From Chloroflexota bacterium (lineage in GTDB: Bacteria; Chloroflexota; Dehalococcoidia; Bin125), in NCBI GenBank assembly GCA_009838915.1, contig VXQT01000032.1, positions 11,016 through 75,015 of the forward strand: DNA of 64,000 nucleotides, given 5' to 3'. Positions 7,684 through 58,544 of the stretch are shown here, piece after piece (the stretch's first letter is position 1; every line of letters starts with the position of its first letter). Position numbers and translations under genes: made by a program. Below the pieces are notes generated by a model that saw nothing but the letters and a program-made list of their open reading frames with translations, made no database searches and was not told where the DNA came from.

Positions 7684-7727
7684 GCCCCCTCCGTCACTCT
7701 GTGACACCTCCCCCAGAGGGGGAGGTA
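7684..7727 (+). repeat. REP-like family 2 element
   Basis: GCCCCCTCCGTCACTCTGTGACACCTCCCCCAGAGGGGGAGGTA. The reverse complement of 20521-20563 differs at only a few loop positions. Confidence 0.8.
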
Positions 7728-19447: not shown

Positions 19448-20509
19448 ATGACCACCGCCGACACATACACCATCGCCGACGAACTCTCCGCCATCGACTA
19501 CTGCTACGAGCAGGGCTGGACCGACGGACTGCCCGTTGTGCCGCCGGCCCGCGAGCGGGTTGAGCGCTTCCTCATGGCCGCAGGCCGACCGCCTGAGGAG
19601 GTCGTCGCCCGGCACCCGGCCACGGGACGCGCGTGCAACGTGCAGTCGGCCGCGATCAACGCCGTCATGGCCGGCTGCCTGCCGCAATACTTCCCCACCG
19701 TGCTGGCCGCGCTCGAGGCGATGAACGAGGACGCCTACAACTTCCACGGATCGACCGCCAGCACCGGCGGCTCGACTCCCGTCGTGGTCGTCTCCGGTGA
19801 CATCCGCGACGAGATCGACATGAACGCGAGCGTCAACGTCTTCGGACCCGGTAACCGCGCCAACGCGACCATCGGCCGCGCAGTCCGGCTGATCATCATG
19901 AACGTCTTCCAGATGATCCCCGGCGTCTCCGACCGCTCGACCACCGGCTGGCCGGGCAAGTACGCCTGCTGCATCGCCGAGAACATCCTCAACAGCCCCT
20001 GGGAGCCGCTGCATGAGTCGCTGGGCTTCCCGCCGGAGGTCTCGACCGCGACCGTCTTCGCCGCCTCCGGCTTCTACAACATCGAGAATCACTACACCTC
20101 GAACCCCGAAGCGCTGCTCGACACCTTCGCCGACGCCATGGCCTCGCTGGGCGCGCTGACCGACGGACAGTCGTTGGTGGTGATGTCGCCGGAACACGCC
20201 GAGATCGCCGCGTCCGGCGGCATGTCGCGCCAGGATGTCCAGGCCTATCTCTTCGAGCACGCCGACCGCGATCGCGACACGATGGAGCGGATCGGCAAGT
20301 GGCCGGAAGGACAGCCGCTGGACGGTCTGGCCGAGCGCCCCTTCGACATGTCCGAGAACCGCTTCCACCGAGGCCGCAGCGCCGATGACATCCTCTTGGT
20401 TGTTGCCGGCGGCGAAGCGGGCGGGCACTCCGCCTTCCTGCCCTCCTGGAGCCGGGGCCGCAACTCGATCTACCAGACCAAGGCAATCGGCGTCTGCCTC
20501 GACTGCTAG
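19448..20509 (+). CDS. Conserved-looking hypothetical protein (353 aa), upstream of the UGSC selenoprotein candidate
   Basis: Protein-like composition (YCYEQGWTDGLPVVPP, GKYACCIAEN, C-terminal GVCLDC). No domain recognised. The antisense 382-aa ORF has a typical G/R/V/D-rich shadow composition. Confidence 0.6.
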   Translation: MTTADTYTIADELSAIDYCYEQGWTDGLPVVPPARERVERFLMAAGRPPEEVVARHPATGRACNVQSAAINAVMAGCLPQYFPTVLAALEAMNEDAYNFHGSTASTGGSTPVVVVSGDIRDEIDMNASVNVFGPGNRANATIGRAVRLIIMNVFQMIPGVSDRSTTGWPGKYACCIAENILNSPWEPLHESLGFPPEVSTATVFAASGFYNIENHYTSNPEALLDTFADAMASLGALTDGQSLVVMSPEHAEIAASGGMSRQDVQAYLFEHADRDRDTMERIGKWPEGQPLDGLAERPFDMSENRFHRGRSADDILLVVAGGEAGGHSAFLPSWSRGRNSIYQTKAIGVCLDC

Positions 20510-20520
20510 CCGCCGTTCAA

Positions 20521-20563
20521 TACCTCCCCCTCTGGGGGAGGTGTCACGAAGTGACGGAGGGGG
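20521..20563 (-). repeat. REP-like family 2 element (inverted copy of 7684-7727)
   Basis: TACCTCCCCCTCTGGGGGAGGTGTCACGAAGTGACGGAGGGGGC. Its 3' GGAGG lies about 10 nt upstream of ATG 20572. Confidence 0.8.
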
Positions 20564-20571
20564 CATCCACC

Positions 20572-21099
20572 ATGCCGCTGGAACTGCTCGACCCGACCGG
20601 TGAACCCGCGCCGACCGGATTCCGCGCCGCGCCGCGACTGACCGCGCTCGACAGTCTGCGCATCGGCCTGTTCTCCAACGGCAAGGTCAACGCCGACCGC
20701 CTGCTGCGCTATACCGCCGAGGTCTTCGAGCGCGAGGCCGGCTGCCGAGTCGCTGTCGACACGGGCAAACCTAACGCCAGCCGCATCGCCGAGCCGCAGG
20801 TGTTGGAACGGATCGCCAACGACGTCGACTTCCTGATCACAGCGGTCGGCGATTGAGGATCCTGTTCAACGTGCAGTGTGCACGACGGGATCAGTTTTGA
20901 GCAGACCGGCAAGCCCGGCCTCGTGCTCTGCACCCATCCGTTCGATCCCACCGGCCGAATGATCGCCAGAACCCTCGGCATGCCCGACTTCCAATACGCC
21001 CTCGTCGATCACCCCATCGGAAGCGCCGCCACCGAGGAACTGCAAGCCCGGGCCCTCGACGCCTACGAGCAGGGTCGGCGAATCCTCTTGGGCGCGTAG
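20572..21099 (+). CDS. Candidate selenoprotein, UGSC-motif family (in-frame TGA at 20854-20856 read as Sec)
   Basis: ORFs 20551-20856 and 20878-21099 share one frame and are separated only by a single TGA. Read-through gives ...DFLITAVGD-U-GSCSTCSVHDG... (UxxCxxC). A hairpin starts right after the TGA. The downstream piece has only a GTG start, and that GTG straddles the apical loop and descending arm of the hairpin. Confidence 0.6.
20857..20892 (+). promoter_or_regulatory. SECIS-like stem-loop immediately 3' of the in-frame UGA
   Basis: GAUCC (20858-62) pairs with GGAUC (20888-92). The upper stem is CGUGCA (20870-75) with UGCACG (20879-84), and the apical loop is GUG. The upper stem begins 13 nt after the UGA, and the GUGCA/UGCAC arms resemble the E. 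coli fdhF SECIS as I recall it. Confidence 0.5.
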
Positions 21100-38954: not shown

Positions 38955-39413
38955 TCAGCGGCGCGACATCGCCTCCAGCACTCGAAACTCCGTGTAATCC
39001 TCGGGCAGCCCCTCGTCAACTGCGGCCTGGCGCATCGCCTCGAGCGCGTCGTTCCAACCCTCCGTCCAACCAACCGCAAACTGCTCGCCGTATGGCGTGT
39101 CCGCGCCTTCCCCGGCGATGACAATCCGCTCTCCCAATCGCTCCACTTCACCATGAGGCAGCCCATCGGCGTAGCCCTGATTCTCGACGGCGACGTACGC
39201 CTTTGCGTACGCCGCCTCCTCCGCCCTCCGCAAATCGTCGGAAGTGCGCAGGTTGAACGGGTCCAGCGTCGCGCCGATTAGCGCCGCCAGGAGCACGCCC
39301 ATCACCGTCGCGACCATCGTGTGCCGACCGATCGGGTCGCGGCCGCGACGCCACCACGAGCGCTCCTGCTCGTCCGTACCCCAAGTCTGCAAGGACGTTC
39401 TGCGCTGAGTCAT
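38955..39413 (-). CDS. Small single-pass membrane protein, type 1 (copy A) of the triplicated two-gene module
   Basis: Basic N-terminus with WWRRG, TM MVATVMGVLLAALIGA, AAYAKAYVAV, and C-terminal FAVGWTEGWNDALEAM. ATG 39413 overlaps the stop of copy B (ATGA). Confidence 0.6.
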   Translation of the reverse strand: MTQRRTSLQTWGTDEQERSWWRRGRDPIGRHTMVATVMGVLLAALIGATLDPFNLRTSDDLRRAEEAAYAKAYVAVENQGYADGLPHGEVERLGERIVIAGEGADTPYGEQFAVGWTEGWNDALEAMRQAAVDEGLPEDYTEFRVLEAMSRR

Positions 39414-39820
39414 TGACGCAGCGCCTCCCACGCCTCAAACGCCGATTCCACTTCCAGCTTGTTGCGCTTCGCGGTATGCAGCGCCAGATCAATCGCCGCA
39501 TTCCAGGAGAACTCGTACGAACGTCGCAGGGCGTCCGCGGGATCGCCCGAGGCGAGCAACTCGGGCAGCGCCAACTGTGCTCGTCCGGCGCCGTCCAGCC
39601 GACCGCGCTCGAACGCCGCCTCGTAGCCGTCGATCCGGCCCTCCCGCTCGCCCCGCACCTCCGCCTTGGCGATCTCCTCGGGCGTGACCTGATCCAGGAC
39701 CGAGATCATCCAGCCGATCGCCGCCGTCACGGCCATCGCCGCGAGCAACGAGATCAGCACTTGTCGCGGCAGGTCGTAGCGAAGCAGGCGCATTCCGTGA
39801 GCGTACACGCGAACCCGCAT
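39410..39820 (-). CDS. Small single-pass membrane protein, type 2 (copy B)
   Basis: YDLPRQ, TM VLISLLAAMAVTAAIGWMI, EGRIDGYEAAFERGRLDG, YEFSWNAAIDLAL, C-terminal WEALRQ. Start taken at ATG 39820 (AGGGG 8-12 nt upstream). The ORF-track start at 39994 would overlap copy C. Confidence 0.55.
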   Translation of the reverse strand: MRVRVYAHGMRLLRYDLPRQVLISLLAAMAVTAAIGWMISVLDQVTPEEIAKAEVRGEREGRIDGYEAAFERGRLDGAGRAQLALPELLASGDPADALRRSYEFSWNAAIDLALHTAKRNKLEVESAFEAWEALRQ

Positions 39821-39869
39821 CTGCAGCCCCTGTGAACACAGGGGCCCGTTCCGCGCGTGACTCACGAGA

Positions 39870-40346
39870 TCAACGTCGATCAATCCCCAAGAGCAGATCG
39901 CGTTCCCGCTGCAACTCATCCGCCGGCGCCTCGGACTCGGTGGCTCGCAGCATGGCGTCGAGCGCCGCGTTCCAGCCGTCGGTCCAGCCCTCACGAATTC
40001 CCCGCACCCAGGCAGCGTCGCCGTCCTTGTGCTCCAGTCCGAGCAGGATCAGGTGGCGCTGCCGACCCAGTTCGACGCCGCGCCGCTGCCCTTCCTCGTA
40101 GGCGGCTTCATACGCCGCATTGAACGCCGCCATCTCCTTATCCGGCAGATCAAACTCCGTCGTCACACCGAGTGGATCGAATGCCACGCCCACCACCGCG
40201 ACTAGCGCAATCGCCACGACGAACGCCAGGATCGAGTGCATGCCCGTGAAGTCGGCGCCGCGCTGCCACCATGCGCCCGCCGCGGGGTCGCTACTGCGGT
40301 AGTTGCTCAAACCATGCCGCCGGGTACGTCTCGGTTGTCTGCTCAT
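39870..40346 (-). CDS. Small single-pass membrane protein, type 1 (copy C)
   Basis: WWQRG, TM ILAFVVAIALVAVVGVAF, AAFNAAYEAAYEEG, VRGIREGWTDGWNAALDAM. ATGA overlap with copy D. Confidence 0.6.
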   Translation of the reverse strand: MSRQPRRTRRHGLSNYRSSDPAAGAWWQRGADFTGMHSILAFVVAIALVAVVGVAFDPLGVTTEFDLPDKEMAAFNAAYEAAYEEGQRRGVELGRQRHLILLGLEHKDGDAAWVRGIREGWTDGWNAALDAMLRATESEAPADELQRERDLLLGIDRR

Positions 40347-40762
40347 CGGCGCAGTGACTCCCAGTACGTCATCCGCCTGAGCTGAATCACCGGCGTATGC
40401 GACGCTTCCTCAATCGCCCGATCGATCGCCTCGTTCCAGGCCAGATCGAAGGCAAACTCGCGGCCCTCATCGAACGTCCCAGTCGACACGAGGCTGTCGA
40501 CATCACCGCGCGCCGCGAAGAACCCGTCTTCCTCGCCATCGCGCAACCCCTCCGCAAACCCGCGCGCCCGACCCTCGACCTGCCCGGTCTCCTCAATACT
40601 CTCCACCTGCGACGGCGGAATCCGCCAGAAGAACGTGATGATCAGTCCACAGGCAATCGCAACCGCGAGTCCCAGCACAAACGCCTTCGCGCTCTGCCTG
40701 GGGATGTCGTACTGCCAGAGCGACTTAACGAAAGACACGAATGACACTCTTACTGAACACAA
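40343..40762 (-). CDS. Small single-pass membrane protein, type 2 (copy D)
   Basis: YDIPRQ, TM AFVLGLAVAIACGLIITFFW, EGRARGFAEGLRDGEEDG, FAFDLAWNEAIDRAI, C-terminal YWESLRR. The start is TTG at 40762 or GTG at 40747 or 40738 (uncertain). Confidence 0.55.
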   Translation of the reverse strand: MCSVRVSFVSFVKSLWQYDIPRQSAKAFVLGLAVAIACGLIITFFWRIPPSQVESIEETGQVEGRARGFAEGLRDGEEDGFFAARGDVDSLVSTGTFDEGREFAFDLAWNEAIDRAIEEASHTPVIQLRRMTYWESLRR

Positions 40763-40780
40763 TCGTTGATCCGACGGATC

Positions 40781-41266
40781 TCACTGCTGCGGAACACGGC
40801 GCGGCTCCGTGTCCAACGCTGTGAGCTCACGCGAGTCGGGGCTCAGGCCTGCCTCGAGCGATGCCGCGAACATCGCATCCAGCGCATCGTTCCAACCCTC
40901 TGCCCATCCTTGGCGAACGCCCTCTGCCCACGCTGAGTCGCCTGACGGCCCAGACGCGAACACAAGCAGTGCAAGTTCATACGTCATGCGTTGTTCCAAA
41001 GCGGACTCGTAAGATTCGTCATATGCGGCGTCGTAGGCGTTGCTCAACGCCTCATACCTAATCTCTTCTACGTCGCCTCGCGTGGTCTGCATCTGCTGTG
41101 GCACAACCTCCAACAGCACCCAGCCGATCAATGCCGCAGTTGCCGCGCCAATCAAGAACCACGCCAGCATCCGCCTTGACGACTCGTCGGGAGGTCGCCA
41201 CATTGCGAGCCTTACGAGATCTCGTGAGCTGCCAGTCGGTGGAGTGAGCGGTGTTCCCAGACTCAT
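40781..41266 (-). CDS. Small single-pass membrane protein, type 1 (copy E)
   Basis: TM MLAWFLIGAATAALIGWVLL, ALSNAYDAAYDESY, AEGVRQGWAEGWNDALDAM. ATGA overlap with copy F. Confidence 0.6.
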   Translation of the reverse strand: MSLGTPLTPPTGSSRDLVRLAMWRPPDESSRRMLAWFLIGAATAALIGWVLLEVVPQQMQTTRGDVEEIRYEALSNAYDAAYDESYESALEQRMTYELALLVFASGPSGDSAWAEGVRQGWAEGWNDALDAMFAASLEAGLSPDSRELTALDTEPRRVPQQ

Positions 41267-41670
41267 CTTCGCAGCTCAATCCACTGGGTGTGCTCTTCCT
41301 CGTGGAGCCGCTGTCTCGGCACTCGCCGGCTGAGCGTCTCGATCGCGTCATTCCAGGCGTAGCGATACGTGGGTTGGTAACCGAGATCAAAGCTCTCGCT
41401 CGCGGTCAAACGGGGGAGCTCTTCGGAAGCTCGACGCTGAGCCTCATCAATGGCGTTCTCTTTTGCTTCCTGCTGAGCCAGATACACCCCTCGCGTTGCT
41501 CCGGCGGTCTCGACTTGATTGCGATAGGACTCAGGAATGCCACTCGGCCACGGTGTTGCTACAACCGCCAGGACGGCCACCACGATCGCGACCAGCGTAA
41601 ATCCCGCCAAGAAGGCGACCAGACTCAGCGGCCAGGCACGGATCTTGAGCAACTTGAACGTCCGCTTCAA
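41263..41670 (-). CDS. Small single-pass membrane protein, type 2 (copy F)
   Basis: Basic N-terminus MKRTFKLLKIR, TM LSLVAFLAGFTLVAIVVAVLAVVA, YRYAWNDAIETL, C-terminal QWIELRR. The TTG start overlaps the stop of the MoaD-like gene (TTGA). Confidence 0.55.
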   Translation of the reverse strand: MKRTFKLLKIRAWPLSLVAFLAGFTLVAIVVAVLAVVATPWPSGIPESYRNQVETAGATRGVYLAQQEAKENAIDEAQRRASEELPRLTASESFDLGYQPTYRYAWNDAIETLSRRVPRQRLHEEEHTQWIELRR

Positions 41671-41951
41671 TGGTGCTCGGACCCCCCTGCGACCGGGGGA
41701 AAGATGTCCAGTTCGCTGTCGGGGTTTACCCGGCTTTGCAGGCCCTCGACGTGGCGGATGTCTCGGCCGTCGACCATGATCGCGACGAAGCGGCGCACCG
41801 TGCCGTCATCGTCGAAGAGCTGCGCGCGGAGTCCGTCGTAGTCGTCGGCGAGGCGCTCCAGGACGGCGCCAATCGTGTCCGGCGGGTCGGACAACTCGAC
41901 GCTGCGGCCGCCGACAATGGGCCGCAGCGTCGCGTAGAAGCGGATCTGCAT
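41667..41951 (-). CDS. MoaD/ThiS-family ubiquitin-like sulfur-carrier protein with a 4-residue extension after the GG motif
   Basis: MQIRFYATLRPIVGGRSVEL ... DSELDIFPPVAGG-SEHH. Beta-grasp sulfur-carrier pattern. Start taken at ATG 41951. Confidence 0.7.
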   Translation of the reverse strand: MQIRFYATLRPIVGGRSVELSDPPDTIGAVLERLADDYDGLRAQLFDDDGTVRRFVAIMVDGRDIRHVEGLQSRVNPDSELDIFPPVAGGSEHH

Positions 41952-41961
41952 GGGCGTCCTG

Positions 41962-42079
41962 TGGGCCCTCACCCCAGCCCTCTCCCAGGGGGAGAGGGAG
42001 TTTAGAAGGAGAGCCCTTCGCTCAACGGATGACGAGTTCCCAACCCCTCTCCCTGAGGGAGAGGGTTAGGGTGAGGGCC
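41962..42079. repeat. Inverted pair of REP-like family 3 units (GGGCCCTCACCC-N3-CCCTCTCCC-N3-GGGAGAGGG)
   Basis: The left unit (41962-41997) and right unit (42043-42079) are reverse complements of each other, and each contains its own 9-bp hairpin. They lie between the AOR and MoaD-like genes. Confidence 0.75.
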
Positions 42080-42095
42080 CTCGCGGCTTTGATTC

Positions 42096-43958
42096 CTACG
42101 CAATGATCTCCAGCTCGCGCAGCTTGGCCTCGCCGACAACGCCGTCGTCCCAGCCTCGGGCGTCGTAGTACTGCTCCTTCATCTGGTCGAGCTCGCAGAC
42201 GTGGCCTTCCGCCGGGCCGCTGCCCGGTTCGGTCAGGAAGCGCTCGGGCAGCGAGTCGTCGCTGCCGTCGAAGCCGGCCAGGTTGTTGTAGTAGCGCTCG
42301 AGGTTGTAGATGCGCTCGCCGGCGACCATCACGTCCTCTTCGGACATCGGCAGGCCGACGACAGTCTCGTAGAGCGCCGCGTACTCAGGCGCGCCCACCG
42401 CGAAGGCGGAGAACTTGCACAGGTCGAGCGAGTCGGAGAAGGCGTGCAGGTCCTGGAAGATCTTGAGCAGCGGACCCTTGCCGTCCCACTCCAGCGGGTC
42501 GGTCTGCACGGGAATGCCCAGCAGCTCCGAGGCCGGCGTGTAGCCGCGCAGGTGGCAGGCGCCGCGATTCGAGGTGGCGTAGCCCAGGCCCTCGCCCTTG
42601 ATCCCGCGCGGGTCGTAGGCCGGCACCGCCTGGCCCTTGACCGTCATCGAGATCTCCGGGTGGCCCCAGGCCGCCGCCGCCTTGGCCGTTCCCTGAGCCA
42701 GCGTCTGACCGATCGAGGACGAACCCATCGCCATCTCCTCGGCCACGCGGACCATGCCCGCGCCGTCGCCCCAGTCGAGCGGCGTGTCGACGTAGCCGCG
42801 CTCCGATGCCTCCATGTACATCGAGATCACGTTGCCGATCTCGATCGCGTCCATGCCGTAGTCGTTGCACTGGTCGATCACCTTGGCGATCACCGCCGGG
42901 TCGTCGTTGCCGCAGTTTGCGCCCAGCGACCAGGCCGGCTCATACTCGAACGACTCCATCTTCAGGCCCGCGTGCGGACCCTCGGTGATCTCGACTTCTT
43001 TCTTGCAGGCCACCGGACAGGCGTGACAGGTCGGCTCGGCGGTCAGGAAGTCATCGCGCATCGTCTCGCCTGAGACCGCGTTGGCCGCCTCCGGCGTGGT
43101 CTGCGTCGCCTGCGAATTCTTCGTGCCCAATCCGCCGACCGCGTTGACCGCGTTCATCAGCACGTTGGTCCCGAACGCCGAGAGCGCGCCCGAGCCCTCC
43201 TTGAGCGAACCGTCGTCGTTGACCGACGACGGCGCCGTCACCGGCGACTCCATGATCAGCTTGAGGTGCGCGCCCTGCGCCTCGCGGAAGGCCTGACGCT
43301 TCTCGCCCTGCTCCGGTCGCCAGCGTCCCTCGCGCGTGCCGCGCACGACCACGCACTTCAGATTCTTCATCCCGGCAACCGCGCCGGTGCCGCCACGACC
43401 GGCCGCGCGGTCGTCCTCGTTGAGGAAAGAAGCAAACAGCACGCCGTTCTCGCCAGCCTGCCCAATCGACATCACCGAGACATCGGTCTTGTTACCGCTG
43501 TCAGAGCCGAAGTGGGCCACCGTGTCGTGGATGCCCTTGCCCCAGATCTCGGAGGCGTCGCGAATGGCAACCTCGCCGTTCTCAACTTCCAGATAGACCG
43601 GCGAGTTCGCCTTGCCCGTGATCAGAACCGCGTCGAAACCGGCCCAGCGCAGCCGCGCCGCCGACCAGCCGCCCATGTGCGAGTCGGTCACCGTGCCCGT
43701 CAGCGGGGACTTGGTCACGAAGGCCAGGCGTCCCGACATCGTCACCTCGGTGCCGGTCAGCGGTCCGTTGACCAGCGCCAGCATGTTGTCGGGAGAACTG
43801 GGATCGACATCCGCGCCGTTGTCGAGCAGGTACTTGACCCCCAGCCCGCGAGCGCCGATGTACTTGCGTGCGTCGTCCTCATTGATACCTTCGTAGGAGA
43901 CCGAGCGGTCAGTCAGATTGACCCGAGCCACCCGATTCGCAAAACCGCCAAGTGCCAT
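42096..43958 (-). CDS. aor: Aldehyde:ferredoxin oxidoreductase (tungsten/molybdopterin AOR family)
   Basis: ~620 aa. N-terminal FANRVARVNLTD, 4Fe-4S/pterin ligand region EPTCHACPVACKK, and GNRGACHLRGY-type segment SNRGACHLRGY. Confidence 0.88.
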   Translation of the reverse strand: MALGGFANRVARVNLTDRSVSYEGINEDDARKYIGARGLGVKYLLDNGADVDPSSPDNMLALVNGPLTGTEVTMSGRLAFVTKSPLTGTVTDSHMGGWSAARLRWAGFDAVLITGKANSPVYLEVENGEVAIRDASEIWGKGIHDTVAHFGSDSGNKTDVSVMSIGQAGENGVLFASFLNEDDRAAGRGGTGAVAGMKNLKCVVVRGTREGRWRPEQGEKRQAFREAQGAHLKLIMESPVTAPSSVNDDGSLKEGSGALSAFGTNVLMNAVNAVGGLGTKNSQATQTTPEAANAVSGETMRDDFLTAEPTCHACPVACKKEVEITEGPHAGLKMESFEYEPAWSLGANCGNDDPAVIAKVIDQCNDYGMDAIEIGNVISMYMEASERGYVDTPLDWGDGAGMVRVAEEMAMGSSSIGQTLAQGTAKAAAAWGHPEISMTVKGQAVPAYDPRGIKGEGLGYATSNRGACHLRGYTPASELLGIPVQTDPLEWDGKGPLLKIFQDLHAFSDSLDLCKFSAFAVGAPEYAALYETVVGLPMSEEDVMVAGERIYNLERYYNNLAGFDGSDDSLPERFLTEPGSGPAEGHVCELDQMKEQYYDARGWDDGVVGEAKLRELEIIA

Positions 43959-44051
43959 GATCGTTCCCTTCACCATCGCTCTGGTTTGCGCGTCAAAGAT
44001 AGCGGATTGCCGCAGCGTTCCCGAGCCGGCGTCTCTTGCAAATCCGAGTGC

Positions 44052-45686
44052 CTACGGCCGCATCCCGTAACGCACCCGAACGCCCAGTTGACTCGGCAGC
44101 TGCGTCTCGTAGGCGATCTTCAGCCACTCAGCCAACATTGGTCGCGTGTCTCGAGGATCGATGATGTCCTCGACCGCGAACGCCTCGGCCGCAGAGAACG
44201 GGTCGCGCAGCGCAATCAGCCGCTCTTCGATCGCCGCGCGATGCGCGACCGGATCTTCCGCTGCCTCGATTTCGCGTCGATAGGCGGCTGCGACCCCGCC
44301 CTCGATCGGCAGCGAACCCCACTCGCCCGACGGCCAGGCGATGCGGAAACAGAAGCGGCTGAAATCCTGATGCGCGCCGCCAGCGACTCCGTAGAGCCGC
44401 CGCACGACCACCGTCGCCCAGGGCACCCGCGAATCGTTGATCGCCGCCGCCGCCTTCACTCCGGCGCGCAGCGTGCCCGCCGACTCGCCCGGCCGACCGA
44501 TCAGGAATCCCGGCTGGTCGGCCAGGTTCACAATCGGCAGGTGGAAGACATCGCACATGTCGACGAATTTCTCGAACTTGCGCGCCTCCTTGGCGCCCAT
44601 CGCGCCGCCGTAGTGCATCGGATCGTTGGCCAGCACGCCGATCGGCATCCCGCCGATCCGCACGAGTCCCGTCACCTGCGCCCGACCGAAGTAGCGCCCG
44701 ATCTCGAAGAACGATCCTCGGTCAACGACCAACTCAATCATGCGGCGCACGTTGTAGCCGCGATTGCGATGCTTCGGGATGATCGAGGCGAGCCGCTCCT
44801 CCCGCCGGTCGAGTGGATCGTCATACTTCATCACCGGCGGAAGCTGATGCACGTTGGTCGGGAGGTAGGAGAGGAACCTGCGAATCTGGCGCATGGCGTC
44901 CGCCTCGTCCTCGGCGTCGTTGTCGACCACGCCGCTGCTGCGCGCGTGGACCTCGTAGCCGCCCAATTCCTCCTTGGTCAGCTTCTCGCCCATCGACCGT
45001 TCGACCAGCGGCGGACCGCCGGCGAACACTTGCGACGAGCCGCGCACCATCACCGAGAAGTGCGAGGCCGGAACCTCCGCCGCCGGCAGACCCGCGACCG
45101 AACCCAGCGCCGCCGAGACCACCGGCGACTGCGACATCAACGTGCCCCAGCGCTCAGGCCAGAACAGCTCCGGCAGGTAGGTCCGACCCATCTCGGCGGT
45201 CGCGCGGATGTCGCCGCCGAACCCGTCGATCAGGCGGATCATCGGGATCTTCATTTCGATCGCCAGCGACTCGATATGCCCCGACTTGTCGCCGCCGCTG
45301 TGAATCCGAATCTTGCCGCCGTTCCCCGACTCGGCCTCGGAGCCGCTGCGCGGCCGCGAGGTGAAGTCGCCGCCCGACACCGCGACCGGACGTCCATCGA
45401 TCTGTCCGGTGCCGATCACGGTCGCCGCCGGATGAAACCCAACCAGTTCGCCGTCGTCGTCGTAGTAGCCGGCGCCCGCCAGGATGCCGCGCTCGCGGAA
45501 CGAATCCTGGTCGAGCAGCAGGTCGATTCGCTCACGAACCGTGAGATTGCCCCGCTCATGCTGCTGCTGTACGCGGTCCGCGCCGCCCATCTGCTTCGCC
45601 AACTCACGTCGGCGCTCAATCTGATCAATCTCCGCTTGCCAGATTGACTCTGAGGACTCAGCCCTGGCTTTGGTCTGGTCTGCCAT
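44052..45686 (-). CDS. Acyl-CoA carboxylase carboxyltransferase (beta) subunit, second paralogue
   Basis: AKQMGGADRVQQQHERGNLTVRERIDLLLDQDSF opening and CT domain throughout. Start taken at MADQTK (ATG 45686). Confidence 0.85.
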   Translation of the reverse strand: MADQTKARAESSESIWQAEIDQIERRRELAKQMGGADRVQQQHERGNLTVRERIDLLLDQDSFRERGILAGAGYYDDDGELVGFHPAATVIGTGQIDGRPVAVSGGDFTSRPRSGSEAESGNGGKIRIHSGGDKSGHIESLAIEMKIPMIRLIDGFGGDIRATAEMGRTYLPELFWPERWGTLMSQSPVVSAALGSVAGLPAAEVPASHFSVMVRGSSQVFAGGPPLVERSMGEKLTKEELGGYEVHARSSGVVDNDAEDEADAMRQIRRFLSYLPTNVHQLPPVMKYDDPLDRREERLASIIPKHRNRGYNVRRMIELVVDRGSFFEIGRYFGRAQVTGLVRIGGMPIGVLANDPMHYGGAMGAKEARKFEKFVDMCDVFHLPIVNLADQPGFLIGRPGESAGTLRAGVKAAAAINDSRVPWATVVVRRLYGVAGGAHQDFSRFCFRIAWPSGEWGSLPIEGGVAAAYRREIEAAEDPVAHRAAIEERLIALRDPFSAAEAFAVEDIIDPRDTRPMLAEWLKIAYETQLPSQLGVRVRYGMRP

Positions 45687-53939: not shown

Positions 53940-54067
53940 TCCGGCAACGGCCAACGAGAAACCTCCAGCGTCTCCGCTAGAGGTTGTGGGTTCGACCTGA
54001 CCGGCGCTTCCGCATTCGGAGCCCGGAGATCGAGGGACCTCTCTACTGCGGAGAGTTGTCACCTCAT

Positions 54068-54232
54068 CGTCCAGGCAGGTCTCCTGGCTTGCGGAGGGAG
54101 GCTGCGCGGCGCTCTTCCCATCGACGCTCGGTCGACAGTGGACGCCGTTTCCCTTTCCGGCTCTTTCGAGCCCCGCTCACAGTGGCGCTACCGCGGCGGA
54201 TTCTCACCGCCTTCCCTATTCTCCCGGGACGG
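54068..54232 (-). promoter_or_regulatory. Cobalamin (B12) riboswitch
   Basis: The minus strand reads AGGGAAGGCGGTGAGAATCCGCCGCGGTAGCGCCACTGT ... GGGAAG ... AAGCCAGGAGACCTGCC. The B12 box is at 54074-54090 and GCCACTG is at 54180-54186. It lies directly 5' of the BtuCD-like/cob operon. Confidence 0.85.
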
Positions 54233-54297
54233 GCACCTGGACGATTACTGCTGAGCGAAGGCTACCACAGGCTGGCGCCGACGCCCGCTCCAGGCCG

Positions 54298-55008: not shown

Positions 55009-55189
55009 TCTGCCCGACCTCCCTCAGGCCGAAACTCAACCCCGCGCTCGCTGCCAAGCAGGTGTGCAGGATAGCGCTGCGCCATTGGCGCTCGACGAAC
55101 ATCTGCGTCGTCTTGAAGCTCCCAAACGCACGCCCTATTGTCTGGTACATATTCCACGGCGACGACCGAGCGCCCTCTCCGGGAGCCGA

Positions 55190-56284
55190 ATGGCCTCAGA
55201 CGCACTAGCCAGCCCAACCGACACTGCCGAACCTCCGGTGCTGCTGACCGGAGCCGCCGGACATGTCGGCGCCAATCTCGTGCGCCGCTTGCTTGACGAC
55301 GGCGTCCGAGTTCGAGTGCTGCTCAGGCCGGAGGACAACAACGAGTCCGTGGAGGGACTGGACGTCGAGCGCGCCTATGGCGACATTCGTGACCTGGAAG
55401 CCACCAGGCAGGCGATCGCCGGTTGTCACCGCGTCTATCACACCGCCGCGCTCGTCTCGACCATCGACGGCGACGACGCCCATCGCCGCGACGTGTTCGA
55501 ATCGAACGTGATCGGCACCCGCAACGTGCTCCAGGCCGCACGGGAAATGGAAGCTGGACGCGTCGTGGTTACCGGCTCGTTCAGCGCTGTCGGATACGAC
55601 CTGGACGACTCCTCTATTCCGACGAGAGAAACGATGCCGTTCTATCCGATGGAACGCACGATGCCCTACGAGCGCAGCAAGGCGATGGTCGAAACCGAAT
55701 GCTGGCATGCAGCGGCGGGCGGACAGGACGTGCTAATCGCCACGTCGTGCGCGGTTGTCGGCGGCAACGATTTCTTTCCGTCCAGAATGGGGAGAACGCT
55801 GTGCGACTTCGCCAATCGCAAGCTCCATGCCTATGTCGACGGCGGGTTCGAGTTCGTCGCGGCGCATGACATCGCAGAGGGCCACGTGCTCTGCATGGAG
55901 CGCGGAAGGTCAGGGCAGAAGTACATCTTCAGCTCCGAGTATCAGACGATTTCCGACATGCTGGATCACTTCCAGGCGGTCACAGGTGTCAAGCGTCCGC
56001 GTCGACAGATACCGCTCGGACTGATGCTCCCGTTCGCCGAGCTGTCGAGCCGCATGCTCAGCCGCTTCTGGCCGAGTTATCCGCAGCGCTTCACCCCCGG
56101 CGCGATCCGTCTGTTGCAGCAATGTCGACACGCCGACACGAGCAAGGCGAAAGAGGAACTCGGGTTCCAGCCGACCACGATTCGCAGCGCAGTCCAGGAT
56201 GCCTACGCGTTTCACTATCGGCGCGAGGCGATCACCAATCCGAACGCCATGCGCCCGGAAGCGCTGACTGCGGGAAGCGAATAG
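55190..56284 (+). CDS. Extended SDR, 3-beta-HSD/NAD-dependent epimerase family (SdmB-like candidate sterol C-4 decarboxylating dehydrogenase)
   Basis: LLTGAAGHVGANLV Rossmann motif and catalytic YERSK (YxxxK). First gene of the sterol operon. Start taken at MASDAL (ATG 55190). Confidence 0.6.
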   Translation: MASDALASPTDTAEPPVLLTGAAGHVGANLVRRLLDDGVRVRVLLRPEDNNESVEGLDVERAYGDIRDLEATRQAIAGCHRVYHTAALVSTIDGDDAHRRDVFESNVIGTRNVLQAAREMEAGRVVVTGSFSAVGYDLDDSSIPTRETMPFYPMERTMPYERSKAMVETECWHAAAGGQDVLIATSCAVVGGNDFFPSRMGRTLCDFANRKLHAYVDGGFEFVAAHDIAEGHVLCMERGRSGQKYIFSSEYQTISDMLDHFQAVTGVKRPRRQIPLGLMLPFAELSSRMLSRFWPSYPQRFTPGAIRLLQQCRHADTSKAKEELGFQPTTIRSAVQDAYAFHYRREAITNPNAMRPEALTAGSE

Positions 56285-56339
56285 CTATGCCGTCTCGCAT
56301 GGGTCCGGTTGCTTCCGCCGAAACGGATAAGCTCGCAGT

Positions 56340-57449
56340 ATGAGCATCGAGACGCAGCCCCGCACGGACGGTCCACCGACGGCGGAAGACGCCGCCAATC
56401 TGCGCCAGCAAGCACGGGCGGTGGGGATGAACCCCGACTATTGGTACGCCGTCGAGGAAGTGCGCAACGTCAAGCCGGGCTCGGTGACAGAAGTCGTCTT
56501 CTGGAAACAGTCGATCGCCCTCTTCCGCTCCGAGGACGGGTCGTTTCACGCGATGGAGAATCGCTGCCTGCATCGCCAGGTCAAACTCTCGCTCGGCGAA
56601 GTTGAGGGCTGCAGGCTCGTCTGCGGCTACCACGGCTGGGGATACGACGAGGAAGGGCACGTTGTCGACATTCCGGACCTGTTCGGACGCACCAAGGTCC
56701 CGAGGCTCTCGGTGCGTTCGTATCCCGTACAGGTTCGTTACGGGTTGGTCTGGATCTTTCCCGGCGATCCGGCGCTGGCCGAGGAACGGCGGATTCCCGA
56801 GATTCCCGAACTCGAGGGCCCCGGACGCTGGGCTTGCGTGCCACTCAGGTTCGATCTCACCGCCCATCACTCGATCATCATCGACAACGTCAGCGACTTT
56901 TCCCACGCCTACCTGCACCGACAGTATCGACCGTTCGACGGCGCCACGCTGACCCGCCATGAGACGATCGGCGACAACGTGCACCTCGCCTACGAGACGC
57001 GCGTGGGCCGCGGACGCATCTCCGGCAAGTTCGTCGATCACGGCCGCCTCAACACCAATCACATGGAACTCTGTTACGAGTATCCCTATCAGCGCTCCAA
57101 CACCGACGACGAGATCAAGCACTGGCTCTTCGTGCTGCCGATCGACGAACGCACCACGCGGACGTTCTTCCTCTTCTACTTCCAGTCGCTCAAAATTCCG
57201 CTGTTACCGGTCCGCATTCCCCGCTGGGCAATGACCACAGTGTTGCGCCTGGCGAACCGGATGCTGATCGGGCCGCTGCTCTCACAGGACCGCTGGGCGG
57301 TGGAGGCGGAGCAGGCCGGCTATGAGCACAACTGGGACGCTCCGCCGATCGAGGTCAACCCGGTCGTGCGCTCATTCCAACAGGTGACGGTGCGCAAGTG
57401 GCGCGAACACCTGGAGCGCGAGGCGGCCGTGAACGCGAACGATGCCTGA
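56340..57449 (+). CDS. Rieske [2Fe-2S] non-heme iron oxygenase (SdmA-like candidate sterol C-4 methyl oxidase)
   Basis: Rieske ligands CLH (56565-56573) and CGYH (56622-56633). The catalytic domain has DNVSDFSHAYLH. Sits between the SDR and sterol reductase genes. Confidence 0.6.
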   Translation: MSIETQPRTDGPPTAEDAANLRQQARAVGMNPDYWYAVEEVRNVKPGSVTEVVFWKQSIALFRSEDGSFHAMENRCLHRQVKLSLGEVEGCRLVCGYHGWGYDEEGHVVDIPDLFGRTKVPRLSVRSYPVQVRYGLVWIFPGDPALAEERRIPEIPELEGPGRWACVPLRFDLTAHHSIIIDNVSDFSHAYLHRQYRPFDGATLTRHETIGDNVHLAYETRVGRGRISGKFVDHGRLNTNHMELCYEYPYQRSNTDDEIKHWLFVLPIDERTTRTFFLFYFQSLKIPLLPVRIPRWAMTTVLRLANRMLIGPLLSQDRWAVEAEQAGYEHNWDAPPIEVNPVVRSFQQVTVRKWREHLEREAAVNANDA

Positions 57450-58539
57450 CATCCCCTCGGCCTGGACGTCGGTGTCCGGCCAGCATGTGCTCGAAGCTGC
57501 GGCGCTCTTCGCTGGGTTCGTCGCCATCTTGCTGTTGGGCTCGAAGGTGCTGCCGGGACGCAAGCAGGATGGACGGCCGGACCCCGAAGGCGTCACACGC
57601 ACCTACCATCTCAACGGTCTCACGCTGTTCCTGGTCGTCATGCTGGTTGCGGTGCTGGGCGAAGTGTTCAATCTGTTCTCGCTCTCGATCTTGCACAGCC
57701 ACTTCGCCGAGCTGTTCATCGTCGCCAACGTTTTCGCCTGTGCGATGTCGCTGGGACTGTACTGGCAAGCGTCGCGCACCGAAGAGCAGTCACCCGGATT
57801 GCTGCGAGGCATCTTCTTCGGCCGACAGCTCAATCCGACCTGGTTCGGAGTCGATCTGAAACTGTTCAGCTATCGACCGTCCTTGATCGGCCTGGCCCTG
57901 TTCAACGTCTCATTCGCTGTCGTTCAGTGGGACGCGAACGGCGGGCTCTCGTTACAGATGATTCTCTACCAGGCCTTCACCCTGCTGTACGTATTCAACT
58001 ACTTCCAGTTTGAGTATGGAATGATCTACACGTGGGACATTGTCGCCGAGCGGTTCGGCTGGATGCTGGCCTGGGGCGATTATGTGCTGGTGCCGTTCTT
58101 TTACTGTCTCGGCGGCTGGTGGGTGCTTGAGGCAACGGGCTCATTGCACAGCGTCGCGGCGGCGGCGATCTGCGTACTGTTCGTTGTGGGATTCACGATG
58201 TTTCGCGGCGCAAACGAACAGAAGCATCGATTCAAGCAGGACGCCGAGGCATCGATCTGGGGACGGCCGGCCGAATCGCTCGAAGGACGCCTATTGGTAT
58301 CCGGGTTCTGGGGCCTAGGCCGACATCTGAACTACACCGGTGAGATCTGCGTGTACTTTGCCTGGGCCCTGACCACCAGCTTCGCCTCGTGGATACCGTT
58401 CGCCTTGCCCGTGTGGCTGACAGCGCTTCTCTGGCATCGATCGCGGCGCGATGACCGACGCTGCCGCCTCAAGTACGGCGAGTTGTGGCAGCGCTACACG
58501 CAGCGGGTGCCCCACGCCTTGATTCCGCGCGTCTACTAG
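57442..58539 (+). CDS. ERG4/ERG24-family sterol reductase (probable sterol C-14 reductase)
   Basis: Polytopic. GANEQKHRFK, GLGRHLNYTGEI and LWHRSRRDDRRCRLKYGELWQRY are hallmark motifs of eukaryote-type sterol reductases. 8-nt overlap with the upstream gene. Confidence 0.8.
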   Translation: MPDIPSAWTSVSGQHVLEAAALFAGFVAILLLGSKVLPGRKQDGRPDPEGVTRTYHLNGLTLFLVVMLVAVLGEVFNLFSLSILHSHFAELFIVANVFACAMSLGLYWQASRTEEQSPGLLRGIFFGRQLNPTWFGVDLKLFSYRPSLIGLALFNVSFAVVQWDANGGLSLQMILYQAFTLLYVFNYFQFEYGMIYTWDIVAERFGWMLAWGDYVLVPFFYCLGGWWVLEATGSLHSVAAAAICVLFVVGFTMFRGANEQKHRFKQDAEASIWGRPAESLEGRLLVSGFWGLGRHLNYTGEICVYFAWALTTSFASWIPFALPVWLTALLWHRSRRDDRRCRLKYGELWQRYTQRVPHALIPRVY

Positions 58540-58544
58540 ACTCG

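What the first reader, a model, noticed from the sequence alone, without database searches (positions are those of the whole stretch)
20572..21099. In-frame TGA in a U-G-S-C-S-T-C redox-type motif followed by a SECIS-like hairpin: candidate selenoprotein
Two ORFs in the same frame are separated only by TGA 20854-20856. Reading it as selenocysteine gives a ~175-aa protein with ...AVGD-U-GSC-STC.... This is a UxxCxxC arrangement, the pattern I recall for glycine reductase selenoprotein B. UGSC is also the name-giving motif of an NCBIfam family that I remember as 'UGSC family (seleno)protein'. A two-tier hairpin (20857-20892) starts right after the UGA, and its upper stem GUGCA/UGCAC and G/U-containing loop resemble the E. 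coli fdhF SECIS. An automated annotator would split or truncate this gene. The REP-like element upstream also seems to supply its Shine-Dalgarno sequence.
Basis: partly seen in the sequence, partly recalled or inferred. Interest (0 to 1): 0.7.

Follow-up and report, generated by a model that had tools for sequence, protein, structure and literature searches.

The report
Known UGSC selenoprotein gene, split by annotators
The in-frame TGA is almost certainly a selenocysteine codon in a 175-residue protein of the already described "UGSC" selenoprotein family, followed by a conserved fdhF-like SECIS hairpin; the gene is real and mis-annotated as two ORFs in public records, but it is a new member of a known family, not a new kind of thing.

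Summary
TGA 20854-20856 joins two same-frame ORFs into a 175-aa protein (ATG 20572 to TAG 21099) that matches Pfam PF24696 "UGSC family" end to end (159 bits) and NCBIfam NF041046 "UGSC family (seleno)protein" (121.5 bits, just under the 125 cutoff). Among 85 related loci, 58 carry TGA at this column and 27 carry TGC/TGT. The frame stays open for about 80 codons after every TGA. It is under purifying selection there (pN/pS 0.13; shifted-frame control 3.8). TGA is the commonest ordinary stop in the window. A 5-bp stem with an NGUNU loop (20870-20884) is conserved in two divergent Sec subfamilies, with compensatory changes (G-C/C-G/G-U/U-A). Synonymous sites within it are frozen. Its loop G and U fall at nt 23/24 from the UGA, as in E. 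coli fdhF. Not shown: the Sec machinery. None lies in the window, and the rest of the MAG could not be read. Added findings: a 353-aa "hypothetical" gene (19448-20509) is an obligate neighbour (80/82 loci) and sometimes a fusion partner. The predicted UGSC fold is flavodoxin-like, not thioredoxin-like. The GrdB likeness is a motif analogy only. The third Cys tracks the Sec/SECIS state. Verdict: an ordinary member of a known selenoprotein family whose function is still unknown.

The parts
20572..21099 (+). UGSC-family selenoprotein gene, 175 aa including Sec; conserved start ATG 20572, stop TAG 21097-21099
   Evidence: PF24696 residues 4-172 = profile 1-170/172, 159.4 bits. NF041046 at 121.5 bits against a cutoff of 125. 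The start is conserved as M-x-L-E-L-L-D-P-T-G with 94 residues before U in nearly all subfamily members. Gene callers used GTG 20551 or ATG 20572 and stopped at the TGA.
20854..20856 (+). In-frame TGA read as selenocysteine (U of the U-G-S-C motif)
   Evidence: The same column is TGA in 58 loci and TGC/TGT in 27. About 80 codons stay open after every TGA, and downstream pN/pS is 0.13 against 3.8 in a shifted frame. TGA is the ordinary stop of 25/37 long ORFs in the window.
20870..20884 (+). Conserved apical SECIS-like stem-loop: 5-bp stem 20870-20874/20880-20884, loop A-G-U-G-U 20875-20879 (A20875-U20879 can also pair); G20876 and U20877 are nt 23 and 24 counted from the U of UGA
   Evidence: On 47 unique sequences from two Sec subfamilies, 93% of cells pair. 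Pair 24/36 is GC 24, CG 20, GU 2, UA 1; slid controls give 14-62%. RNAalifold picks the same stem. Synonymous sites of codons +5..+10 are frozen in Sec forms but not in Cys forms. The register matches fdhF.
20858..20892 (+). Whole two-tier hairpin in this window (lower stem 20858-20865/20885-20892, bulge 20866-20869)
   Evidence: Only the CUG/CGG core (20862-20864/20886-20888) is conserved across the subfamily, where 14/42 and 12/44 are mostly mismatched.
19448..20509 (+). Obligate partner gene, 353 aa, 'hypothetical protein' with no Pfam/NCBIfam model; invariant Cys19 and Cys175, near-invariant Cys77 and C-terminal C-x-D-C
   Evidence: Adjacent on the same strand in 80/82 loci: upstream in Sec forms, downstream in actinobacterial Cys forms. 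Fused C-terminally to UGSC in P0043/56/66/67/142/151 (45% id, E 7e-77). It is the only neighbour conserved across all groups. At least 7,923 clusters, none named. Conserved residues.
20522..20563 (+). REP-like palindromic repeat in the partner-UGSC spacer; its 3' end carries GGAGG (20556-20560) upstream of the ATG
   Evidence: Inverted repeats. A second full copy at 7685-7725 (-) and related hairpins at 41979-41997 and 42046-42064, with ~0 expected by chance. The same element sits at the same site in L041, L069 and L072 and is absent from most relatives, which have ...gacGGAGnccatc-ATG.

Best explanation
Window 20572-21099 is one gene for a 175-residue UGSC-family selenoprotein. The ribosome reaches UGA 20854-20856. 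The mRNA hairpin just downstream (apical stem-loop 20870-20884, loop G20876/U20877) recruits SelB.GTP.Sec-tRNASec, so selenocysteine is inserted and translation runs on to TAG 21099. This step is inferred, not shown. In the predicted flavodoxin-like alpha/beta domain, Sec lies at the N-terminus of a helix, one turn from Cys (U-G-S-C). That geometry is typical of a redox-active selenol/thiol pair. The protein most likely serves as the dedicated redox (electron or sulfur/selenium-relay) subunit of the 353-aa protein encoded just upstream (19448-20509), with which it forms a conserved and sometimes fused two-gene module. What that module acts on is unknown; the surrounding genes suggest catabolism of small organic compounds. 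Shown: family membership, TGA/Cys correspondence, translation-frame conservation past the TGA, hairpin conservation, partner linkage. Inferred: Sec insertion itself, redox role, functional interaction with the partner.
For: Family: PF24696 full length at 159 bits; NF041046 E 2.9e-35. The family is described as 'UGSC-containing protein', 255 Sec against 21 Cys sequences in GOS (PMC2398784), and still listed as function-unknown in 2022/2026 reviews. TGA against Cys: 58 TGA and 27 TGC/TGT loci at one column. Translation past the TGA: pN/pS 0.13 downstream, 0.22 upstream, 3.8 shifted frame, with about 80 open codons in 58/58 loci. In the AF2 model (pLDDT 94.6) the U/C column lies in the middle of a single domain, so the two halves cannot be separate proteins. 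SECIS: conserved stem-loop with GC/CG/GU/UA covariation at one pair and invariant loop G, U; frozen synonymous sites only in Sec forms; mean folding z -1.5 and -3.8 in the Sec subfamilies against 0.0 in Cys forms; G23/U24 register and UGCAC arm shared with verified fdhF. Standard code: TGA is the main stop codon. Not an assembly error: the same TGA appears in independent assemblies L004, L085, L086 and L087. Redox/partner: adjacency in 80/82 loci, fusions, and a UGSC-Pyr_redox_2 (thioredoxin-reductase-like) fusion, P0045. SelA/SelB co-occur in most sponge-symbiont bins (PMC5649159).
Against: No selA, selB, selD or tRNA-Sec lies in the 64-kb window or in about 1 Mb of related loci. The rest of the MAG could not be examined, so the decisive machinery test is open. 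NCBIfam score 121.5 is slightly below the equivalog cutoff of 125. No Rfam SECIS family matches the hairpin. The apical motif was not found after in-frame TGAs of any other gene in 1.02 Mb, so there is no independent second selenoprotein from this lineage. Covariation rests on one variable pair; four stem pairs are invariant and also lie in conserved codons. The redox function and partner interaction are inferred from motif, predicted fold, synteny and fusions only. Neither protein has a solved relative.
Confidence: 0.88

Rival explanations
1. The UGA is recoded but not to selenocysteine. A tRNA-Sec-like or suppressor tRNA inserts Cys (or another residue), perhaps still using the hairpin and a SelB-like factor.
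For: The Sec machinery was not seen. Cys works at this position in 27 loci. UGA-to-Cys recoding by selC-like tRNAs has been reported in some bacteria (my own knowledge, not checked here).
Against: The family is a recognised selenoprotein family with far more Sec than Cys members in metagenomes. The fdhF-like loop G23/U24 points to canonical SelB. The TGA forms uniformly keep a third Cys (58/58 against 22/79). That fits protection of a reactive selenol, or the SECIS itself.
Confidence: 0.04
2. The TGA is a true stop. The locus is a pseudogene, or two separate small genes (an N-terminal 94-aa product and a C-terminal 73-aa product starting at GTG 20878).
For: This is how every gene caller annotated it. 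No Sec machinery was seen in the window.
Against: The TGA is fixed at the same column in 58 loci of two subfamilies, with the frame kept open and strong purifying selection downstream. Cys-form homologues are single polypeptides. The break would cut one compact domain between a strand and its helix, removing the conserved motif's first residue. GTG 20878 lies inside the hairpin and is simply the conserved Val codon.
Confidence: 0.04
3. Sequencing or assembly error: the real codon is TGC/TGT and this is a Cys form.
For: A single-base difference would be enough.
Against: The identical TGA occurs in independent assemblies from different samples (L004, L085, L086, L087) and in dozens of other genomes. 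TGA forms and Cys forms also differ systematically in the next 10 codons.
Confidence: 0.01
4. The hairpin is a by-product of coding for the conserved peptide STCSVHD and has no RNA function.
For: Four of five stem pairs never vary and lie in conserved codons. No Rfam match.
Against: Synonymous positions are frozen: Thr ACG 27/28, Ser AGT 28/28 in a 66% GC genome, Val GTG 28/28. Neighbouring Gly and Ser codons vary freely. The second subfamily encodes a different peptide (TSCCMQD) that forms the same stem in the same register, with a compensatory C-G pair and the same loop G, U. Cys forms have neither the peptide nor the structure (z 0.0).
Confidence: 0.03

Closest known systems
UGSC-containing protein family (Pfam PF24696; NCBIfam NF041046; Zhang & Gladyshev, PLoS Genet 2008, PMC2398784)
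   Same: Full-length HMM match, U-G-S-C motif, ~175 aa single domain, Sec/Cys alternation at one column, and fusion with an unnamed domain ('Unknown_1' in that paper, which probably corresponds to the partner found here).
   Different: Nothing essential. This is a member from a sponge-associated Chloroflexota MAG. The NCBIfam score is 3.5 bits under the equivalog cutoff. The literature guessed a thioredoxin-like fold, whereas the AF2 model here is flavodoxin-like.
E. coli fdhF SECIS (SelB-binding mRNA hairpin)
   Same: A hairpin directly 3' of the UGA inside the coding sequence. The apical loop has G and U at nt 23 and 24 from the U of UGA, and the 3' arm UGCAC at nt 26-30 is identical.
   Different: The loop is GUG/AGUGU rather than GGUC. 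There is no bulged U17 equivalent; a 4-nt bulge sits lower down. The lower stem is not conserved. No Rfam SECIS model matches. SelB binding is untested.
Glycine/sarcosine/betaine reductase protein B (GrdB/F/H) and proline reductase PrdB
   Same: A selenoprotein with a U-x-x-C-x-x-C motif. It works with a partner protein encoded next to it.
   Different: No sequence homology (no PF07355 hit at E<=10). No grdA/grdE/grdC or prdA genes nearby. Much smaller (175 aa). The third Cys is not a family-wide feature (22/79 Cys forms).
Thioredoxin-fold UxxC/CxxU selenoproteins (Trx-like, Prx-like, SelW-like)
   Same: A UxxC redox-type motif at the N-terminus of a helix. One family member is fused to a thioredoxin-reductase-like flavoprotein (P0045).
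   Different: The predicted topology is five parallel beta-alpha units (flavodoxin-like/Rossmannoid), not the thioredoxin beta-alpha-beta-alpha-beta-beta-alpha. Foldseek finds no thioredoxin-fold protein among the top hits.

Membership tests
UGSC family (PF24696 / NF041046) | Full-length match to the family profile above its curated threshold | tested here: met
   Pfam PF24696: 159.4 bits against gathering 25, residues 4-172 = profile 1-170/172. NCBIfam NF041046: E 2.9e-35 but 121.5 bits against an equivalog cutoff of 125, so marginally below that stricter cutoff.
UGSC family (PF24696 / NF041046) | U/C-G-S-C motif at the conserved column after ...(A/G)-(V/I)-G-D | tested here: met
   ...ITAVGD-U-GSC.... 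D, C/U, G and C are near-invariant in 83 representatives.
UGSC family (PF24696 / NF041046) | Adjacent or fused ~350-aa partner ('Unknown_1') | tested here: met
   Window 19448-20509. Adjacent in 80/82 loci, with fusions. That this partner equals 'Unknown_1' of PMC2398784 is inferred, not checked against their supplementary alignment.
Bacterial selenoprotein gene (Sec decoding) | In-frame UGA aligned with Cys in homologues, with the ORF conserved downstream | tested here: met
Bacterial selenoprotein gene (Sec decoding) | SECIS hairpin immediately 3' of the UGA with an apical-loop G/U at the proper distance | tested here: met
   Conserved stem-loop with covariation. G23/U24 as in verified fdhF. 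SelB binding itself is not testable here.
Bacterial selenoprotein gene (Sec decoding) | selA, selB, selC (tRNA-Sec) and selD present in the genome | not testable with these tools
   None in the window or in ~1 Mb of related loci. The rest of MAG GCA_009845245.1 could not be fetched. Only indirect literature support exists.
Bacterial selenoprotein gene (Sec decoding) | Selenium actually incorporated in the protein | not testable with these tools
   Needs 75Se labelling or mass spectrometry.
GrdB/PrdB reductase selenoprotein B (PF07355) | Sequence homology to the GRDB family | tested here: not met
   No PF07355 hit at E<=10 for the window protein or P0002.
GrdB/PrdB reductase selenoprotein B (PF07355) | U-x-x-C-x-x-C motif | tested here: met
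   U-GS-C-ST-C. The motif is confirmed for GrdB/F/H in the literature.
GrdB/PrdB reductase selenoprotein B (PF07355) | Operon with grdA/grdE/grdC/trxAB or prdA | tested here: not met
   The gene map of the whole window shows none.
Thioredoxin-fold oxidoreductases | Thioredoxin fold | tested here: not met
   The AF2 model (pLDDT 94.6) has five parallel beta-alpha units. Foldseek top hits are flavodoxin-like/Rossmannoid, TM<=0.5. This rests on a prediction, not an experiment.
Rfam bacterial SECIS families | Match to a curated covariance model | tested here: not met
   No SECIS family at E<=10 on 20780-20980.
REP-like intergenic palindromic repeat | Short imperfect palindrome repeated in intergenic regions of the genome | tested here: met
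   Two full copies and two related hairpins in 64 kb, with ~0 expected. Present at the orthologous site in three related genomes. The genome-wide copy number is unknown.

The most novel reading that the evidence does not exclude
UGSC and its ~350-aa unnamed partner (at least 7,900 sequence clusters, no Pfam model, no solved structural relative) together form a widespread, wholly uncharacterised two-component seleno/thiol enzyme. A small flavodoxin-like Sec carrier would serve a catalytic subunit of a new fold in catabolism of organic compounds by marine and sponge-associated Chloroflexota and by Actinomycetota. In the Sec forms, the SECIS would dictate part of the active-site peptide, including the third Cys of UxxCxxC.
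Probability: 0.4. Interest if true: 0.55.

Novelty: new member of a known kind. Interest (0 to 1): 0.3.

Why it matters
The practical value is annotation. Public records, including NCBI MAG GCA_009845245.1 and several ENA assemblies, carry this gene as two fragments, and the same error affects dozens of Dehalococcoidia/Chloroflexota genomes. It also marks the organism as a probable selenium user. In biological terms, the UGSC family is among the most abundant selenoprotein families in aquatic metagenomes, yet it has no known function. Three results here give concrete handles for working out what the module does: the strict pairing with an unnamed 350-aa protein, the flavodoxin-like rather than thioredoxin-like predicted fold, and a compact lineage-conserved SECIS with fdhF-like geometry. 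None of this overturns current knowledge.

Tried and rejected
- GrdB/PrdB homology: rejected (no Pfam hit at E<=10; no grd/prd neighbours).
- Thioredoxin fold: not supported by the AF2 model or Foldseek.
- PDB sequence searches for the UGSC profile and the partner: nothing significant.
- Partner fold search: best TM 0.27 (class I fumarate hydratase, Toblerone-fold hydrolases), too weak to use.
- Rfam SECIS families: no match.
- tRNA-Sec in the window and 52 loci: none, only a tmRNA in L075.
This is a weak negative.
- Other selenoprotein genes carrying the same apical motif after an in-frame TGA in 1.02 Mb: none beyond UGSC genes.
- A GC3-based scan of the window for other TGA-split genes: too noisy in a 66% GC sequence to be useful.
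- Altered genetic code: rejected, because TGA is the main stop.
- Conserved neighbours beyond the partner: none across groups. Contexts differ but are broadly catabolic.
- My first context filter for grouping loci was too strict and was redone.

Full report
**1. Observation**

The sequence shows ...GCG GTC GGC GAT TGA GGA TCC TGT TCA ACG TGC AGT GTG CAC GAC GGG ATC..., with the TGA at 20854-20856. Translating 20551-21099 in one frame gives a single interruption at that TGA and a terminal TAG at 21097-21099. The listed ORFs 20551..20856 (101 aa) and 20878..21099 (73 aa) are the two halves. The RNA from 20858 to 20892 folds as a two-tier hairpin. MFE is -20.2 kcal/mol with z -2.15 on 58 nt, and z -3.5 on the 45 nt starting at the UGA.

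**2. What the protein is**

With Cys in place of U, the 175-aa product matches Pfam PF24696 "UGSC family" from end to end: residues 4-172 against profile 1-170 of 172, 159.4 bits, gathering threshold 25. It also matches NCBIfam NF041046 "UGSC family (seleno)protein" across both halves (E 2.9e-35). That score is 121.5 bits, 3.5 bits short of the equivalog cutoff of 125.

The family is in the literature as "UGSC-containing protein". It is one of the most abundant selenoprotein families in the Global Ocean Sampling data: 255 Sec and 21 Cys sequences, UxxC motif, "likely" thioredoxin-like fold, and fused in some cases to a domain called Unknown_1 (PMC2398784). Reviews from 2022 and 2026 still list it as a bioinformatically defined family of unknown function (PMC9312934 and PMC13188914).

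**3. Origin and public annotation**

The window is nearly identical to sponge-metagenome scaffolds (ENGE20-1 samples) and to contigs VXZW01000073.1 and VXZW01000010.1 of NCBI MAG GCA_009845245.1. Its closest named relatives are Dehalococcoidia/Chloroflexota MAGs. In all of these records the gene is called as two pieces, 94-101 aa plus 73 aa, both flagged PF24696.

The conserved start is ATG 20572. Nearly all subfamily members begin M-x-L-E-L-L-D-P-T-G, with exactly 94 residues before the U. The GTG 20551 used by some callers is therefore probably wrong.

**4. Sec or Cys at the column**

Together with the window and the loci from encoding-contig look-ups, 85 sequences carry the motif; the set was biased towards Cys forms because one seed pattern required Cys.

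| Group | Loci | Sequence at the column | Organisms |
|---|---|---|---|
| SecA (window's subfamily) | 32 | D-TGA-GSC-STC-SVHDG | Dehalococcoidia/Chloroflexota MAGs, one Rokubacteria |
| SecB (second, divergent subfamily) | 26 | E-TGA-GSC-TSC-CMQDA | Dehalococcoidia/Chloroflexota MAGs |
| Cys forms | 27 | TGC/TGT, mostly D-C-GSC-SAA-TVADG | Mainly Microbacterium, Agromyces and other Actinomycetota |

- After every TGA the frame stays open for about 80 codons.
- Against the window, median pN/pS is 0.22 upstream of the TGA and 0.13 downstream (the first 13 codons after the TGA, which contain the hairpin, were excluded). A shifted-frame control gives 3.8. The downstream half is therefore translated in this frame.
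- TGA terminates 25 of 37 long ORFs in the window, and it terminates the partner gene in many relatives. A reassigned code is excluded.
- The same TGA occurs in independent assemblies, which excludes an assembly error.

**5. The hairpin as a SECIS**

I aligned 47 unique 60-mers from both Sec subfamilies without gaps (A2). A 5-bp stem is 100% paired: columns 23-27 with 33-37, which is window 20870-20874 with 20880-20884. Pair 24/36 occurs as G-C (24), C-G (20), G-U (2) and U-A (1). The loop is N-G-U-N-U, with G, U and the last U invariant. Including the extra A-U pair, 93% of cells pair, against 14-62% when the partners are slid. RNAalifold independently returns the same stem.

The caveat is that four of the five pairs never vary and lie in conserved codons. 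The covariation therefore rests on one pair, with perhaps three or four independent events.

The synonymous-site pattern adds independent weight. In the window's subfamily, codons +5 to +10 are ACG 27/28, TGC 28/28, AGT 28/28 (a rare Ser codon in a 66% GC genome), GTG 28/28, CAC 26/28 with two CAT that keep a G-U pair, and GAC 28/28. The flanking Gly and Ser codons use three or four synonyms each. Cys forms vary freely in the same stretch, for example GTC 13 against GTG 13.

Mean folding z-scores for the 45 nt after the codon are -1.5 (SecA), -3.8 (SecB) and 0.0 (Cys forms). The lower tier is less conserved. In the window's subfamily only CUG/CGG is constant, and the window's 8-bp lower stem is its own elaboration. 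The second subfamily has a fully conserved GCUGC/GCAGC lower stem in a different register.

**6. Comparison with fdhF**

The fdhF sequence I recalled proved exact in 5,419 of 5,426 E. coli genomes, where it is annotated as the selenocysteine-containing formate dehydrogenase H. I folded each element starting at the U of UGA.

| Element | Apical loop (nt from U of UGA) | Loop sequence |
|---|---|---|
| E. coli fdhF | 22-25 | GGUC |
| Window | 23-25 | GUG |
| Second subfamily (SecB) | 22-26 | UGUAU |

In all three, a G and a U occupy nt 23 and 24. The 3' arm UGCAC at nt 26-30 is identical between fdhF and the window. From established knowledge of the E. coli system, G23 and U24 are the main SelB contacts; I did not re-check that in a paper. 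No Rfam SECIS family matches the element. A scan of 1.02 Mb of held DNA for TGA + 10-16 nt + 5-bp stem + NGUNU loop in an open frame returned only UGSC genes: 55 hits, against 2 in shuffles.

**7. Sec machinery**

This is the gap. ARAGORN and Rfam find no tRNA-Sec in the window. The Pfam-annotated gene calls that together cover the whole window show no SelA, SelB or SelD domains. The related loci hold no tRNA-Sec and no SelD-like gene. Indirect support comes from a sponge-microbiome study, which reports that SelA and SelB co-occur in most symbiont bins of various phyla (PMC5649159).

**8. Partner gene**

The 353-aa ORF at 19448-20509 has no Pfam, NCBIfam or PDB match. It has at least 7,923 homologous clusters, all "hypothetical".

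- A homologue lies next to the UGSC gene on the same strand in 80 of 82 loci. The two exceptions are contig ends.
- It is upstream in both Sec subfamilies and downstream in actinobacterial Cys forms.
- It is fused to the C-terminus of UGSC in several 540-660-aa proteins.
- No other neighbour is conserved across the groups.
- Another member, P0045, fuses UGSC to a pyridine-nucleotide-disulfide oxidoreductase. That fits a redox-carrier role.
- The partner has invariant Cys19 and Cys175, and near-invariant Cys77 and a C-terminal C-x-D-C.
- Its AF2 model (pLDDT 83, pTM 0.87) has no convincing PDB relative; the best TM is 0.27.

**9. Fold of UGSC**

An AF2 model of a full-length Cys form, built with 83 family sequences, is confident (pLDDT 94.6, pTM 0.86). 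It shows five beta-alpha units, with the U/C residue at the N-terminus of helix 101-116, directly after strand 92-98. Foldseek finds only generic flavodoxin-like/Rossmannoid matches (TM <= 0.5) and no thioredoxin fold. The U column lies in the middle of one compact domain, which argues against two separate polypeptides.

**10. GrdB analogy and the third Cys**

UxxCxxC is indeed the GrdB/F/H motif. There is no detectable homology and no grd or prd context.

The third Cys is present in 58/58 TGA-form loci but in only 22/79 Cys-form representatives. Its UGC codon is the core of the SECIS 5' arm (U25-G26-C27 of A2). The data cannot say whether it is kept for selenol chemistry or for the RNA stem.

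**11. REP-like element**

The palindromic element at 20522-20563 has a second full copy at 7685-7725 (-) and related hairpins near 42 kb. It occupies the same spacer in L041, L069 and L072. Most relatives instead have a ~20-nt spacer ending gacGGAGnccatc-ATG. In the window the element's 3' end supplies GGAGG at 20556-20560, 11 nt before the ATG. That could serve as the Shine-Dalgarno sequence, but the spacing is long and the function is untested.

**12. Verdict**

This is a genuine selenoprotein gene of the known UGSC family, wrongly split in public annotation. I rate it "new member of a known kind". My confidence in family membership, together with specific recoding of the UGA as Sec, is about 0.88. 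The remainder is reserved mostly for the unseen Sec machinery. Interest is modest at 0.3. What raises it above a routine re-annotation is the clean SECIS comparison, the strict partner module with no characterised relative, and the predicted non-thioredoxin fold.

Noticed in passing
window ~55064-63364 (+): An apparent bacterial sterol-biosynthesis cluster in a sponge-associated Chloroflexota MAG. Genes in order: 3-beta-HSD/epimerase, Rieske + VanA_C oxygenase (56340-57449), ERG4/ERG24 sterol reductase (57442-58539), cytochrome P450, and a ~1,135-1,158-aa fusion of squalene epoxidase with squalene/oxidosqualene cyclase domains (59888-63364). Pfam labels come from gene calls of L091.
   Followed up: no
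window 54057-54255 (-): Cobalamin riboswitch (RF00174, 91 bits) upstream of a FecCD/ABC transporter and cobalamin lower-ligand/salvage genes (CobA/CobO, CobT-like DBI_PRT, CobS, CobU, His_Phos_1) at ~48-54 kb on the minus strand.
   Followed up: partly
window 7685-7725 (-), 20522-20563 (+), 41979-41997 and 42046-42064 (-): A REP-like palindromic repeat family (CCTCCCCCTCTGGGGGAGG + GTCACnnAGTGAC + GGAGGGGG). The same element is present at the orthologous partner-UGSC spacer in L041 (with a nested extra hairpin), L069 and L072.
   Followed up: partly
window 19448-20509 (+): The partner protein family is very large (at least 7,923 clusters at 90% identity) yet has no Pfam or NCBIfam model, no name and no solved structural relative. 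It is a candidate for a new domain family definition.
   Followed up: partly
P0045 (502 aa): A family member fuses the UGSC domain to a thioredoxin-reductase-like Pyr_redox_2 flavoprotein with a CGTC motif. This hints at the physiological reductant of UGSC proteins.
   Followed up: partly
window ~39000-44500 (-): A tungsten-type aldehyde:ferredoxin oxidoreductase (AFOR_N/AFOR_C) is followed by ThiS and six consecutive small ORFs (127-158 aa) with no Pfam hit. A MoaD_arch gene and two CoA-transferase genes lie nearby.
   Followed up: no
L001 10180-10312: In the 4.59-Mb relative, the UGSC ORF runs 110 codons past the U instead of ~80. The extension passes through a repeated, palindrome-rich stretch (…GEREGLPLARGAFSGSEGPPLARG…), which looks like a repeat element absorbed into the 3' end of the reading frame.
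   Followed up: no
L006-L031: A second Sec-containing UGSC subfamily (E-U-GSC-TSC-CMQDA) in Dehalococcoidia genomes has its own, more stable two-tier hairpin (mean z -3.8). Some genomes (for example CATQHF01 with L011/L012, and BMJY01 with L051/L053 for Cys forms) carry two copies of the module.
   Followed up: partly
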